DNA of 26,212 bases, from contig JBDRFY010000056.1 of NCBI GenBank assembly GCA_043818275.1, positions 1 to 26,212 of the forward strand. The letters are read 5' to 3'. This stretch comes from a bacterium. GTDB taxonomy: Bacteria > Babelota > Babeliae > Babelales > JAUWHS01. Position numbers: made by a program. This document shows positions 9,001-15,000 of this stretch, one piece after another. Positions within the stretch are counted from its first letter, which is position 1, and each line of letters starts with the position of its first letter.

Positions 9001-12000
9001 GTGGAAAAAGCAAAATTAATAAATGGTTTGTATGATTCGGTAAATCCATTGGTTTTTAGCGATGATGTTAAACCATTAACTGAAAATGAACGGAAACTTA
9101 TAATTTTAACCCCCCTTCGCCAAGGCTTCCCGCTTCGCCAAAGCTTCGCAGGACATGTCGGAGGGCAAGAAAGTGAAAAATTCGCTGACGTTTTAATGGT
9201 TGTTATTGGTGCAATGATGGTTGGAAAGATTAAATTGACATATAAACCTGATGAAAAATATAAAAAGGGTGATGAGTGTGGTTATTTTGAATTTGGCGCA
9301 TCTTCGATTGCATTATTATTTAAAAAAAATGAAATAAAAATAAACGATGTTTTTATAAAAAATTCCGCAAAAGGGTTTGAAACAGAAATTAAAATGGGGC
9401 AAGTTGTGGGCAGCTTTTTTGAAAATATAAAAAAAGTTAGAGATCCTGAATCAAGTTCAGGATGACAAAATAGAGAATCTTAATTTTTCTTTGTTATCCT
9501 GAACTTGATTCAGGATCTCTGGTTTTAATAATTTTTCATATTAATTTAAAGGGTAGTTATGGAAATTTATCCATCTTTAATTTCTTCAGATTTATTAAAT
9601 TTGCAAAAAACAATAAATATTCTGCAACCAGTTGTTGATGGTTTTCACATTGATGTTATGGATGATCATTTTGTTCCAAATCTAACCTGGGGTCCAGCGT
9701 TTGTTGATGCAATTGTTGGTGCAACTGAAAAACCATTACATGTACACATAATGGTTGATAACCCTACAATATGGACAAAAAGAATAAAATTATTACGAGA
9801 TCGTGACACTTTAATTTTTCATTATGAAGCAATTGATTGTAAAAAAATTCCAAAACTTATTGAAGAAATTAAAAATCAAAATGTAAATGTTGGTATTGCA
9901 ATAAATCCAAAAACTGATATTAATGTTGTTTTTGATTTTTTACCTGATTTAAATAATGTTTTAATTATGTCTGTTAATCCAGGTTTTTCAGGGCAACGAT
10001 TTATGCCGCAAGTTATGGATAAAATAACTCCGTTATTTGAATATAGAGAAAAAAATAATTTTAATTTTAAAATTAGTATGGATGGAGGAATTGGTCAGAG
10101 TAATATTAAAAATCTGGTTGATTTGGGCGTGGATCAGTTTGGAATTGCTTGCGCAATTTTTTCACAAAAAGATTGGATTGCAGCAGTTGAAAATTTGAAA
10201 GTTTAAAAATGAAATATTTGATTTTTAGTTTTTTAGTAATTTCTATATTTAGTATTTCTAATTTGCGCGCAAATAACATTCTAACTTTTCGTTTACATGA
10301 TTCTGAAGCCAAATTACCAGATGATGTTTGTTTTGTTCAGGAAAAAGATAATTGTATTGTTAAGTATGAATATAAAAAAATTAAAACTACTATTATTTCC
10401 AAAGAAGAAGTTGGGTTTATTAATTTTTTAGATGAAAAGATTAATAAATTTTTAGGATATATTTTGGGTATTAAAAAAGGTGAGTTTAATTTGGTTGATG
10501 GGGAATTTGATTAAAGGTGTGAAATAGTTAAGAGTTATTGTGTTGATTTTTTCACGAAGAGATTGTATGAAAAATGTTAAGGGATGGGGAGAGTTAGCTG
10601 AGGTATTTTTTGGGGGGTGTATTATTTTTTTTATTTTTTTATATTTCGAATTTAAATGCAAGAAAAAGAATAAATATTTATTGGGAAAATAATGATGCTG
10701 GTATTCCAGAAAATATTTGTATTATTAAAAAAGAAAAAGGTTTGATTTTTAAGTACATATATAAAAAAGAGGTCATGGCTAAAGTGCAATTATATGAGCA
10801 ATATTTAGAAAAATCAGATTTAAATATATATTTGAATTTGCCTTCAGATAAATAATTTTTATTTTAAAAAATAAATATGATTTAAACGGACAATGTTTAA
10901 AATATTGAAAGGTTTTTTGTGTCAGAAGGTGCTAGTGTTTCAAAATTAAGAGTAGGTGTTTTTTTTGGCGGAAAGGGAATAGAGAGAGAAGTTTCTTTTA
11001 ATTCTGGCAGAACGATTTGTGATCACATAAATGAATTTGAGTATGACACAGTTCCTATTTTTCAGCGATTTGATGGAGAGCTTTTTATTTTGCCATGGCA
11101 TTTTATGCACAGAGGTAAAATTTCTGATTTTATTAACAGGTTAGAAACAGAGGCAAAAAAAATATCCTGGGATGAGCTTAAAAATTTAATTGATTTTATG
11201 TACATTGCAACTCATGGAAGATTTGGTGAGGATGGGACAGTACAGGGATTTCTTGAAATTTTAGGAATTCCGTATCTTGGGGCAAAAGTTTTTGGCAGTT
11301 CTTTGGGGATGAATAAAATAATGCAGAAAACTTTTTTTCGGACCAATGGGATAGATGTGGCAAAAGATGTTTTTTTTTCCGCTTATGAAATTAAAAACTT
11401 ATCCAATGAAATAATTTTAAAAAAATTAAAAGAAAATAAAATAGATTTATCATGCGTTGTAAAACCAAATAATGAAGGTTCAAGTTTTGGTGTTGCGGTT
11501 GTTGAAAAAAAAGATGATTTATTAAATGCTATAAAAAAAACGTCAAAATGTGATAACCGATTTGAGCAGGATGTTATTGTTGAAGAAAAAATAGAAGGGA
11601 TGGAATTTGTTTGTGTTTGTTTGCAGAAAATAAATAAGAATGATAGCCCTACTTCGCATAAAGCTTCCGGTTTCGTACCGCAAAATAGCGGCACTTCGCC
11701 GGACGTGTCTTCGGGCATGTCTTCGACATGGTTTGCGTTGCCGATAACACAAGTTATTCCTGAAGATGGTTCAAAATTTTATGATTACGATCAAAAATAT
11801 ATGCCGGGTCGGGCATCAAAAATAACTCCTGCAAACTGTAGTGCGCAAGATCAGAAAAAAATTCAGGATGTTTGTATAAAAGCAACTGAAATTTTAGATT
11901 TTTCCACGATTTCACGTATTGATGGTTTTTTAACTAAAGATGGCAAAGTAGTATTGATTGATCCGAATGCTTTAACCGGAATGGCTCCAGCAACCTTTTT

Positions 12001-15000
12001 ATTTCATCAGGCTGCAGAAATTGGTATGAGTCATACTCAACTTATTAATTATTTAATTGAAGTTGAATTGCAAAATTACAAAAGAGGTTAAAAAATGAAT
12101 AAAAAAATTAAAGTCGCTGTTTTGTTGGGGGGAAATACAAATGAACGTGAAATTTCATTAGAATCAGGACGAAATATTTGTTACAAATTAAATACGGAAA
12201 AATATGAAGTGTTACCAATTTTTGTTGATGACAAAATGGAGCTTTATAGATTAGATCAAAAATTATTAGTTCAAAATTCAACGCGTGAAATTGAAAAAAA
12301 AGTAACAGAAGAAATAAAAGTTAATTGGTCCGGCTTATCTGAAATTTGTGATTTTGTTTTTATTGCACTTCATGGAGGATTTGGTGAAAATGGGGCGGTC
12401 CAGGGAACATTAGAAATGCTTGGCCTTCCTTATAATGGTTCTGGAGTGTTAACGAGTGCAATTTGTATGGACAAAGTAAAAACGACAGATTTTTTGAGGG
12501 CTCATGGTTTTGATGTTCCTAATTCTTTTTTGATTCAAAAAAATGTTTGGCAGGAACAAAAAGATGAAAAACAAAAAGAAGATTTTTTAAAAAAATTATT
12601 AAAAGATTTTGAATTTCCTGTAATTGTAAAACCGCATGATGATGGATGCAGTTTTGGGGTTGCAAAAATTGAAAATATTTTTGAAACAATAAAACAAATT
12701 GATAATTTTTTTGTTAACTACAAAAAGGATTCAGTTTTGATCGAAGAATTAATAAAAGGGATGGAACTTACTTGCGGTGTAATTGGAAATGATAAAGTAA
12801 TTGCGTTGCCTCCAAGCAAAGCCGTTGCAGCGCAAGGAATTTTATCAATCGAAGAAAAATTTCTACCAGGCGCGGGAGAAAATATTACTCCGGCCCCGTT
12901 GCCCGAAGAATCATTAAAATTTGTTCAAAAAACAATGCAAGATGTTTATTCAACTTTAAATTGCAAAGGTTACGCTCGCGTTGATTGTTTTTTTCAAAAT
13001 GCGCAAGAAAGTAAAACGAAAAAAGACAGAGTTGTAATTTTAGAAATTAACAGTCTTCCCGGCATGACTCCGGCAACATGTATTTTTCATCAAGCGGCGG
13101 AAATTGGAATAAGACCGATGGAATTTGTGGATAAAATTGTTGAACTTGGTTTTGAAAATCACAAACAAGTTAAAACGGATATTAAAAATAAAATTTATGA
13201 AAAAATAAAACAAACAAATGTTTAATTTTGCGAAAAAAAAGAAGGACGTATATTTATTGCTTCAATATTAAATTGACCATTGTTGTCTGTTGTTAGTTTC
13301 ATAAATGTTGGGTAGTAAGTTATTGCATGGTTCTCACATTGAATTGTTGCTGAGATTAATGTAATTATTTTTTCGGTTAAGTTTGTTACTCCTGATGTGA
13401 AATCTGGGGTGAATTCTTCGTACAAAATTGATTTTTTTGGTAATTCATGTTGATGTCCACGAATAAATTTTAAAAAGTTATTTTCTAATTGATATTCTTT
13501 AAGGACTTCGTTTAAAAATAATTCATTGTATTTAATAAATGCTGGACCACGTACTGTATTATTTTGAACAATCGGATAGCTTTCATCTGTATACAAAATA
13601 TCTGCCCATAAAAAATTAATAAAAGGATTATTTAGTGTAAACTGATCAAAAAGAGGTTGTTCCAAAGTTTTTCCATAAATTTGTAGTATTTTTGGCGCAT
13701 CATCAAAATCAACTAATTCTAATGGATTAAATTGTAATTTGAAATTATTTAGTACCGCTAAAAAATTTTTAGGGTTATATCTAAATTCAAAGCCTGCATG
13801 GCTTAAATGAATAAATTTTTGTTTATCTGATGTAAGGTAAACTGCGGCTGGCATTAACGCATAAGATGTTTTTAATTGATTAACAAATTGAAGATTGAAT
13901 TTTTTAAATTTATTTGCTAGCTCTTTTAAAAAACCATAGTTTAAATTTATATTTATATCTTCATGATTGCCCCGAATTAAAACAACATTGTATGGATTAA
14001 TTATTTTTAAAAGCATAATGGTTGTTAAAGTTTCCAGACCCATTTCCCCTCGGTCTGTATAATCTCCTAGAAATATTAAATTGGCATTATGCAATTTTAA
14101 ATTTGTATCTAATACAGAAGTAGTTTTATCAATAAATAAATGTTTTTCTCTTTTAATTATATAATTTAATATTTCAAAGAGATCATTAAAATTTCCGTGT
14201 AGATCTCCAATTACATAAGTTTTTTCTAAGTTATTTGTGAATAATGCGCAAGTATGAAATGTTTTATCGATTTGTTTAATTGGTCGTGAAATTATTATCC
14301 CTTTTAAAGGGATAATAATTTCATTTGTTCTTTGTTTTATAGGCCAATATTTTTGTTTAGTGAAAATTTTTGAGCATGTAGTATTAAATTTAGTAATTAT
14401 TTCTATGAAAGTTTCTTCACGGATCTTTTTTTCGTTTAATTGATCACGCCACTCATAAAAATTTAAGTTTTTTAAATTTTCTATATCTATGTCGAAGGAA
14501 TTTAGTTTTGTTTGGTGGGACAACAAAATTAAAAAAAGAGATAAAAAAAGGATATTTAATTTTTTTGTTTTTTTCATAATTAAAAAATTTTCTAGTTTAA
14601 AAAAGATTTTTTGTATAAAAACAACTGATCTTATTATAAAAACTATATTTTTATCGTCAAAAAGTTTCAGTCTTAAAGTTTACTTCCAGATAAAAAAGAC
14701 AATGCGGATCTTATTAATTTATCCAATGGGTAATTTTGATCAGAATATTTTTCTGTTAAATACATCATCGCTTTTGAAATTTCCGGTTTTGAATAATTTA
14801 ATGAGACTAAAACATCATTAATATTTTGCCAGTGTGTAAAATCTTGTTGTTGTTCACTTAGATTTATTTGACCGGAAGAAAGAAGTTTTGAAATTTTATG
14901 CTTTAATTGCACAATAATTTGTTCTGCTTTTTTTTCACCAATTCCGCTAATTGAGCTTAAAGCATCTTCATTCTGCGTTGTTATAACTTCTATAAATCTC

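What a model noticed while it worked through the whole genome (the two positions that open the first line are those of the whole stretch)
10919..13225. Tandem D-Ala-D-Ala ligase pair with fixed asymmetric active sites (Tyr vs Phe omega loop), a single chain in most Babelo [...]
g00667 and g00668 are two in-frame, adjacent Ddl genes that are the halves of a two-domain Ddl found as one 740-850-aa chain in most Babelota. The halves keep different, invariant active sites: the first has the omega-loop Tyr of D-Ala-D-Ala ligases but Asp for the metal-binding Glu, the second has Phe, as D-Ala-D-lactate ligases do. This points to an obligate heterodimeric ligase with two specificities or one regulatory half.
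Evidence so far: Second half matched in 28 of 31 genomes; in 26 of the 27 relatives it lies in one frame of 736-847 aa; pair seen in most of 47 of 51 genomes. In 109 of 120 database fusions that could be cut: half 1 K-Y 109/109 and D-x-N 109/109; half 2 K-F 109/109, D-G-C-S 109/109, E-x-N 109/109. Here a TAA and a new ATG 3 bases later separate the halves in frame. The genome has no alanine racemase but a VanX-like dipeptidase g01048.
(Added by a program. Inside this text positions count along the whole contig: contig position 1 is position 1 of the stretch shown here. "Call 12" and the like, gene names such as g00115 and contig names such as C1 are that model's own, and its searches are not shown. 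The text may have been shortened before it was handed on; [...] marks where a part breaks off. The agent that wrote the report below was given it as the finding of a first reader that could run no searches.)

Follow-up and report, generated by a model that had tools for sequence, protein, structure and literature searches.

The report
Naturally split double D-alanine ligase
These two genes are the separated halves of an old two-headed cell-wall enzyme also found in other bacteria and in plant chloroplasts, and a start signal hidden in the joined versions of relatives seems to let the second half be made on its own.

Summary
Observation confirmed. The window holds two Ddl genes (390 and 376 aa), separated in frame by TAA-AAA-ATG. 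An independent contig carries the same stop, and a congener is fused. The asymmetry holds in 120 of 120 Babelota-type fusions, but is not Babelota-specific: Cytophagales, Patescibacteria and plant DDL carry it too, and halves group by position in a tree. Plant DDL is published as a fusion of two DDLs, and this scan noted the family in five other genomes. The D-lactate reading is weak: moss makes an Ala-Ala pentapeptide, and only 33 of 201 Babelota have a D-2-hydroxyacid dehydrogenase. Asp for Glu270 need not inactivate half 1. Added here: fused Babelota genes keep a start codon with a Shine-Dalgarno signal in the linker (Met in 87 of 120 proteins, against 17 of 120 in the next window), and eight genomes are split at that start. 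Half 2 is probably also made alone, so 'obligate heterodimer' is doubtful. Most likely product D-Ala-D-Ala; nothing measured. New variant of a known kind.

The parts
10919..12091 (+). Half 1 gene (390 aa). E. coli DdlB equivalents E15, H63, E68, K97, K144, S150, S151, E180, E187, K215, Y216, R255, D257, N272, G276 kept; E270 is Asp, P275 is Thr, L282 is Phe
11798..11800 (+). Half 1 omega-loop Tyr294 (Y216 equivalent)
11960..11968 (+). Half 1 D348-P-N350, in place of E270-x-N272
11626..11735 (+). Ser/Gly/Pro-rich loop insertion in half 1, 47% GC against 31% for the genome; motif spacing 59 aa against 29-41 in 110 of 117 relatives parsed
12083..12088 (+). Shine-Dalgarno-like AGAGGT overlapping the end of half 1, 6 nt before the ATG of half 2 (duplex -6.5 kcal/mol with a generic anti-SD)
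12089..12097 (+). Junction TAA-AAA-ATG; the ATG lies 11 codons before the Gly-Gly of half 2, where fused relatives keep an in-frame start codon
12095..13225 (+). Half 2 gene (376 aa). Metal ligands D257, E270, N272 canonical; E148 is Asp, S150 is Cys, Y210 is Leu, Y216 is Phe, L282 is Cys
12641..12652 (+). Half 2 D183-G-C185-S (Cys at the S150 position)
12860..12862 (+). Half 2 omega-loop Phe256 (Y216 equivalent)

Best explanation
This is the organism's only D-Ala-D-X ligase, a naturally split copy of an ancient two-module Ddl family shared with Cytophagales, many Patescibacteria and other bacteria, and plant plastid DDL. Ordinary Ddl is a homodimer; this family fixed the two subunits as unequal partners (shown by sequence and tree). 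Both halves keep the ATP, metal, first-D-Ala and phosphate-binding residues, so both probably phosphorylate D-Ala (inferred). Half 1 keeps the E15-S150-Y216 triad and a tight acceptor pocket and is probably a strict D-Ala-D-Ala site. Half 2 has lost the triad hydroxyls and has a roomier, apolar pocket, so it is probably a relaxed acceptor site that still takes D-Ala (inferred). The dipeptide passed to MurF is D-Ala-D-Ala (measured in moss; inferred here). In Babelota the linker of the fused gene keeps a working translation start, so half 2 is probably made both inside the fusion and alone (inferred from conserved start codon and SD signal). That start lets a stop or frameshift arise in the linker at no cost, as here. 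The two chains then pair as half1-half2 and possibly also half2-half2.
For: Only Ddl hits in G000; MurF present over its cut-off. Residue tallies: 120 of 120 Babelota-type, 120 of 120 Cytophagales-type, and 59-62 of 62 plant-type by position. Tree: 45 half-1 rows on one side (SH-aLRT 94) and 45 half-2 rows on one side (99), against 7 single Ddl. Coffea protein P0257 carries the same signature. Context: murC-murB-[double ddl]-ftsQ in L093; Mur ligase next in L079 and L101; alanine racemase next in L032, L046 and L049 (L049 is in unpublished G213) among 31 loci; Ddl-Ddl-Mur ligase and Ddl-Ddl-Mur ligase-Alr fusions. The pair is the only PF01820 match in 36 of 49 genomes, or 35 of 47 without unpublished G213 and G228. 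Moss Ala-Ala pentapeptide by mass. D-x-N binds two metals in Asp1. AlphaFold2 model of fused P0002: pLDDT 91.2, pTM 0.88. Internal start: Met at -10 to -17 in 87 of 120 against 17 of 120 at -18 to -25; ATG or GTG in 33 of 41 loci against 8 of 41. The SD signal peaks 3-6 nt upstream (-2.87) like true G000 starts (-3.34, -3.07), with flanks near 0; controls are 5 of 120 Cytophagales-type and 8 of 56 plant-type. Split genomes start 10-13 codons before Gly-Gly. Half-2 homodimer model: score 0.61, best control 0.00, contacts agreeing at 97% or more, pLDDT 85 or more; the mark is reached by 20 of 30 solved pairs and 1 of 23 single chains, and the pass may come from likeness to solved Ddl dimers.
Against: No activity was measured for any bacterial member or single half. 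The moss result concerns a 30-49% identical sub-clade, and I did not see the moss sequence itself; Coffea stands in for it. Mass spectrometry would miss a minor depsipeptide. Neither half reaches the TIGR01205 cut-off (224 and 231 against 245.65). Half 2 has exactly the triad losses that favour depsipeptide synthesis in lactic acid bacteria. G276 is Ala in 41 of 120 half-2 rows. The -10 to -17 zone was chosen; kin are not independent; 8 of 41 loci lack a start in the zone; three split genomes have a weak SD (-0.6 to -0.9). The tree is the quick search, with no bootstrap, and 18 rows are flagged for composition. G000 lacks detectable Alr, Asp/Glu racemase and D-amino acid aminotransferase, so its D-Ala source is unexplained.
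Confidence: 0.55

Rival explanations
1. Half 2 is the sole D-Ala-D-Ala catalyst. Half 1 binds ATP and D-Ala but turns over little, acting as an allosteric or stabilising partner; making extra free half 2 from the internal start tunes activity.
For: E270D, P275T/S and L282F are fixed in half 1 of all three clades. Half 2 has canonical metal ligands and is the half that can be made alone. Arabidopsis lines that could still make only the C-terminal module keep normal plastids and label with azido-D-Ala, which the authors leave unexplained (passages).
Against: Half 1 keeps K215, Y216, R255, D257, N272 and G276 without exception in the aligned sets and is as conserved as half 2 (0.69 against 0.69). 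D-x-N is catalytic in Asp1.
Confidence: 0.22
2. Two specificities: half 1 makes D-Ala-D-Ala, and half 2 makes D-Ala-D-X with another amino acid (D-Ser, Gly or a larger apolar D-amino acid), giving mixed stems or disposing of odd D-amino acids.
For: Half 2 acceptor pocket changed together at S150C, Y210L, Y216F and L282C/V in all clades. DDL is kept in angiosperms that lack MurF (passages), and plant D-Ala dipeptides with other amino acids have no known enzyme (passages).
Against: Only the Ala-Ala pentapeptide is listed for moss. No conserved neighbour supplying another D-amino acid was seen in 31 plant-type loci or 12 Babelota loci.
Confidence: 0.13
3. One reading: half 2 is a D-Ala-D-lactate ligase of the Leuconostoc type, and the cells build depsipeptide termini.
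For: Phe at Y216 in 120 of 120, 120 of 120 and 62 of 62 rows. The Phe rule predicts vancomycin resistance in lactobacilli. VanA is the top PDB sequence hit of half 2, narrowly (4.7e-41 against 7.6e-40). An M15 peptidase occurs in 99 of 201 Babelota.
Against: Moss mass fits Ala-Ala. D-2-hydroxyacid dehydrogenase in 33 of 201 and not over cut-off in G000, against alanine racemase in 138 of 201. Leuconostoc ligase 1ehi ranks low (1.7e-24). NF000206 165 against cut-off 550. The only 2-hydroxyacid dehydrogenase neighbour (L043) has an ACT domain and a class V aminotransferase beside it, so it is SerA-like. Host-supplied D-lactate is not excluded.
Confidence: 0.07
4. The linker ATG and SD are an unused relic of a two-gene ancestor of Babelota; only the full fusion is made, and the splits are rare accidents or assembly errors.
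For: 8 of 41 loci lack a start in the zone. Two out-of-frame splits (G177, G137) come from single-contig genomes without a congener sharing the junction and may be sequencing errors.
Against: Linker length (18-34 aa) and sequence vary freely while the start and SD spacing persist. The window's stop is read-supported. G107/G104 and G127/G099 share their junctions in pairs.
Confidence: 0.25

Closest known systems
Plant and algal plastid DDL (Arabidopsis At-DDL, Physcomitrium PpDdl; Coffea P0257 here)
   Same: Two tandem Ddl modules (PMC9954125). Same signature: half 1 K-Y and D-x-N, half 2 D-G-C-S, K-F and E-x-N. Halves orthologous by position.
   Different: One chain with a transit peptide and large insertions; a different sub-clade; no conserved linker Met in the plant-type set (8 of 56). 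Here two genes.
Cytophagales two-module Ddl, about 900 aa (Cytophaga hutchinsonii, Pontibacter)
   Same: Same asymmetry in 120 of 120.
   Different: Longer, Gln at E148 in half 1, no linker Met (5 of 120); annotated only as D-alanine--D-alanine ligase.
E. coli DdlB and other homodimeric D-Ala-D-Ala ligases
   Same: Fold (TM to target up to 0.93) and catalytic residues; the dimer arrangement is recurrent in Ddl (PMC6899670).
   Different: Identical subunits, each with both the E15-S150-Y216 triad and E270; here each half has only one of these.
Leuconostoc/Lactobacillus D-Ala-D-lactate ligases (F261) and VanA
   Same: Phe at the Y216 position in half 2.
   Different: Single-module; low similarity (1ehi 1.7e-24); no vanH-like gene or cluster here.
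Genes with in-frame internal starts (Cas11, two-polypeptide endolysins, Ribo-RET sites)
   Same: A C-terminal part is made from an internal start as well as within the full protein (search listing and abstract starts only).
   Different: Those cases are shown by experiment; here it is inferred from conservation, and in a housekeeping enzyme.

Membership tests
Two-module (plant-type) DDL family | Two complete Ddl modules in tandem | tested here: met
   Each gene has PF01820 and PF07478 over cut-off; fused in relatives
Two-module (plant-type) DDL family | Halves orthologous to the plant halves | tested here: met
   Half 1 rows SH-aLRT 94, half 2 rows 99, quick tree with Coffea P0257
Two-module (plant-type) DDL family | Single polypeptide | tested here: not met
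   TAA at 12089-12091, read-supported; congener fused
D-Ala-D-Ala ligase (EC 6.3.2.4) | ATP, phosphate and first-D-Ala residues (E15, H63, E68, K97, K144, S151, E180, E187, K215, R255, D257, N272) | tested here: met
   Both halves, 119-120 of 120 at each position; numbering from E. coli ddlB locus L031; residue roles recalled
D-Ala-D-Ala ligase (EC 6.3.2.4) | E15-S150-Y216 triad and E270 in the same site | tested here: not met
   Half 1 has the triad but Asp270; half 2 has Glu270 but Cys150 and Phe216
D-Ala-D-Ala ligase (EC 6.3.2.4) | TIGR01205 curated cut-off | tested here: not met
   224.1 and 231.1 against 245.65
D-Ala-D-Ala ligase (EC 6.3.2.4) | Makes D-Ala-D-Ala | not testable with these tools
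   Indirect only: moss pentapeptide mass; genomic context
Lactic-acid-bacterial D-Ala-D-lactate ligase | Phe at the Y216/F261 position | tested here: met
   Half 2
Lactic-acid-bacterial D-Ala-D-lactate ligase | D-lactate supply in the genome | tested here: not met
   PF02826 not over cut-off in G000; 33 of 201 in the phylum; import from the host not testable
Lactic-acid-bacterial D-Ala-D-lactate ligase | Groups with LmDdl2 in a tree | not tested
   No Leuconostoc sequence in the tree; 1ehi is a low PDB hit
VanA/VanB-type ligase | NF000206 cut-off and vanH-vanA-vanX cluster | tested here: not met
   165 against 550; neighbours unrelated; M15 gene on another contig beside NlpC/P60; VanA groups with single Ddls

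The most novel reading that the evidence does not exclude
Babelota make two or three different ligase dimers from one locus. A conserved internal start yields free half 2, so half1-half2 and half2-half2 dimers coexist with different acceptor specificities, and their ratio sets what ends the peptidoglycan stem during the intracellular cycle. The same division of labour would explain why plant DDL stayed double and why Arabidopsis insertions in the first half have no phenotype.
Probability: 0.15. Interest if true: 0.8.

Novelty: new variant of a known kind. Interest (0 to 1): 0.5.

Why it matters
What each half of the plant double DDL does is stated as open in the plant literature. This locus offers the two halves as natural, separately translated proteins, so each site can be assayed alone and in pairs without designing a cut. 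The family is the only detected Ddl in most Babelota and many Patescibacteria, so its product defines their cell-wall precursor. A phylum-wide internal start in an essential enzyme would be an unusual way to set subunit ratios. It also explains why some of these genes look interrupted in annotations.

Tried and rejected
Assembly error at the stop: rejected. Babelota-specific invention: rejected. VanX as a sign of van-type resistance: rejected; the M15 protein looks exported, lies beside NlpC/P60, and also occurs in 3 of 14 control genomes. Conserved operon context in Babelota: none with cell-wall genes; an exonuclease gene recurs in 7 of 12 loci. Five f8 genomes with weak matches were suspected to have a single Ddl; the three read carry the plant-type double form instead. 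Promoter and terminator scan: no more than chance for promoters (9 against 14.0) and nothing at the junction. Expression: no RNA holder listed. The ESM Atlas gave the lead to Streptophyta but no structure search. Hirano et al. 2016 is not held and is known only through citing papers. A passage on E270, S150A or Y216F mutants of DdlB was not found; their behaviour is recalled only and not used as evidence. PMC10765375 and PMC10784329 gave nothing usable. Searches for a paper on the asymmetric sites or on bacterial double Ddl found none; subscription papers and the picture-only Fig. S3C of PMC9954125 were not seen. The half1-half2 pair was not run as a complex. In one search the Babelota split rule parsed only 36 of 120 rows, so one search is used for them. 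In one search the G137 row was mis-parsed (one search is right) and the second G199 copy was not resolved. L059 was not parsed and is absent from the neighbour scan and the tree.
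Full report
Observation. The window holds two forward ORFs, 10919-12091 (390 aa) and 12095-13225 (376 aa), in one frame with TAA-AAA-ATG between them. Both have the N- and C-terminal Ddl Pfam domains over the cut-offs, are 32% identical, and are the only tblastn hits in the genome (94% complete). Neither reaches the TIGR01205 cut-off or any Van ligase cut-off. 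Neighbours (rpe, psd, a metallophosphoesterase, ruvA) are not cell-wall genes. The stop is real. A 151-nt contig of run X4 spans 12042-12192 with no difference; no run held more than a fifth of the sampled words, so this is one thin contig. G250 of the same genus is fused, with a linker about 9 codons longer. An AGAGGT lies 6 nt before the second ATG.

Distribution in the phylum. 190 of 201 sampled genomes match half 2. Of 150 listed rows (238 unlisted), 141 are in frames of 729 aa or more, two are contig-edge pieces fused at the linker, and seven are split; G104 is an eighth. No PF01820 match was found in the four match-less genomes rechecked.

Active sites. With E. coli DdlB from locus L031 as the ruler (residue roles recalled), both halves keep E15, H63, E68, K97, K144, S151, E180, E187, K215, R255, D257 and N272 in 119-120 of 120 fusions. 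Half 1 has S150, Y216 and G276 but Asp at 270 (120 of 120), Thr/Ser at 275 (119) and Phe at 282 (119). Half 2 has E270 and P275 but Asp148, Cys150, Leu210 and Phe216 (each 120 of 120), Cys/Ala/Val at 282, and Ala at 276 in 41 rows. The two halves are equally conserved. An AlphaFold2 model of fused P0002 is confident (pLDDT 91.2, pTM 0.88) and matches single Ddl structures; no listed solved chain covers both modules.

The family is wide and partly known. A profile search of 1.84 billion representatives returned, behind the Babelota-type rows, a group of 840-950 aa and one of about 760-870 aa with the same motifs. The first is Bacteroidota, including Cytophaga hutchinsonii and Pontibacter, with all five motifs in 120 of 120. 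The second includes Patescibacteria, chlamydiae, alphaproteobacteria, Bdellovibrionota, actinomycetes and clostridia and the Coffea protein P0257. In 62 aligned members, half 1 has K-Y in 62 and D270 in 61; half 2 has C150 in 59 and K-F in 62. In a quick IQ-TREE search of 97 rows, the 45 first halves lie on one side of a branch (SH-aLRT 94) and the 45 second halves on another (99), apart from seven single Ddls. One old duplication is therefore not ruled out and is the simplest reading; there is no bootstrap. PMC9954125 (passages; supplement legends) states that At-DDL and its moss homologue are fusions of two putative DDL enzymes found throughout plants, and that it is unknown whether the partial protein works. 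This scan noted the family and its asymmetry in five other genomes; I had reached that reading before the look-up. My paper searches found no description of the asymmetric sites.

What it makes. Moss extracts gave UDP-MurNAc-pentapeptide at 595.6646 and 595.6693 against 595.6629 for Ala-Ala (PMC9434261, section 7 read whole); a lactate end would give 596.155. PpDdl knockouts give giant chloroplasts (passages). In bacteria the double gene sits in the ddl slot of murC-murB-ddl-ftsQ in L093, before a Mur ligase in L079 and L101, and near alanine racemase in L032, L046 and L049, of 31 loci with 116 neighbours scanned. It is fused to a Mur ligase in P0211 and to a Mur ligase plus alanine racemase in P0269. 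It is the only PF01820 match in 36 of 49 genomes; L049 and this count touch unpublished G213 and G228 (35 of 47 without them), and most are incomplete. In Babelota, alanine racemase occurs in 138 of 201, D-2-hydroxyacid dehydrogenase in 33 of 201 and M15 peptidase in 99 of 201. Asp at 270 need not kill half 1: in the ATP-grasp kinase Asp1, D333 and N335 hold both metals (PMC9765450, passages), although that is another enzyme class.

The internal start. Fused genes often showed an ATG or GTG 11-17 codons before the Gly-Gly of half 2. Counting afterwards, Met lies at -10 to -17 in 87 of 120 proteins, against 17 of 120 at -18 to -25 and about 18% expected. At DNA level 33 of 41 loci have ATG or GTG there, against 8 of 41. 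Pairing to a generic anti-SD peaks 3-6 nt upstream of these codons (-2.87 kcal/mol) and is near zero elsewhere in the linker, as for 495 true starts of G000 (-3.34, -3.07). Cytophagales-type (5 of 120) and plant-type (8 of 56 parsed) fusions lack the Met. The eight split genomes, in five genera, start half 2 at -10 to -13. Three of these genera have fused members, so splitting is derived and repeated. G177 and G137 could be sequencing errors; G107/G104 and G127/G099 share junctions in pairs. Limits: the zone was chosen after seeing data that overlap the test set, kin are not independent, and 8 of 41 loci lack the codon. A two-copy model of half 2 passed (0.61, best control 0.00; contacts agree at 97% or more; pLDDT 85 or more; mark reached by 20 of 30 solved pairs and 1 of 23 single chains), which may reflect likeness to solved Ddl dimers. 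A word search of earlier scan notes for this feature found nothing.

Mechanism. Shown: two unequal modules, one origin by tree, a real split, a conserved linker start signal. Inferred: both sites active, D-Ala-D-Ala as the main product, free half 2 made from fused genes, reassembly of the split halves. I put this at 0.55, a regulatory half 1 at 0.22, a second amino-acid specificity at 0.13 and D-lactate at 0.07. Separately, the chance that the linker start is an unused relic is about 0.25. G000 has MurF and other Mur ligases but no detected alanine racemase, Asp/Glu racemase or D-amino acid aminotransferase; an exported-looking M15 peptidase beside an NlpC/P60 gene suggests salvage of D-amino acids from prey cell walls in the host (inference). 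A complete mur pathway is reported for Chromulinavorax (PMC6561590, passage); Babela lacks most such genes (PMC4776705, passages).

Verdict. Real, and a split variant of the known double DDL. The asymmetry is undescribed in the papers I could search but was seen before by this scan. The conserved internal start and repeated splitting are the new parts. Interest 0.5.

Noticed in passing
L149, L150, L151 (G067, G078, G112; family f8): These Babelota carry the plant-type double Ddl instead of the Babelota type; in the half-1 tree they group with a Peribacteria copy (SH-aLRT 99), suggesting replacement by transfer.
   Followed up: partly
L068 (Bdellovibrionota) and P0257: In the half-1 tree the Coffea group is sister to a Bdellovibrionota copy (98) inside the Patescibacteria/chlamydiae/alphaproteobacteria clade, not with Bacteroidota as PMC9434261 suggests; unresolved in half 2.
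   Followed up: partly
L125:1453-3338 (G000 contig C78): NlpC/P60 gene followed by an M15 D,D-peptidase, both with signal-peptide-like N-termini, in a genome without detected Alr, Asp/Glu racemase or D-amino acid aminotransferase: possible peptidoglycan salvage.
   Followed up: partly
Families f1, f7, f11, f13: Alanine racemase was not found in most genomes of these families (0 of 4, 3 of 23, 0 of 9, and G000), although they keep the double Ddl.
   Followed up: no
window 11626-11735: GC-rich, Ser/Gly/Pro-rich insertion of about 25 aa in half 1; such inserts vary in length among relatives.
   Followed up: partly
L156 (G139) and L158 (G199 contig C1): G139 has two frameshifts inside the modules; G199 and G143 hold second copies of the pair, that of G199 with a stop in half 2.
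   Followed up: no
P0140, P0219, P0247: Some Bacteroidota-type double Ddls carry a long C-terminal tail with a predicted membrane stretch; P0140 has a PASTA domain.
   Followed up: no
L116-L119, L121-L124: An RNase T-like exonuclease gene lies within two genes of the Babelota ddl in 7 of 12 loci.
   Followed up: no
window 22566-23260: MntA/HepT-like nucleotidyltransferase toxin-antitoxin gene pair on the minus strand.
   Followed up: no
window 15470-16914: Two adjacent stand-alone M41 peptidase-domain genes without the FtsH ATPase part.
   Followed up: no
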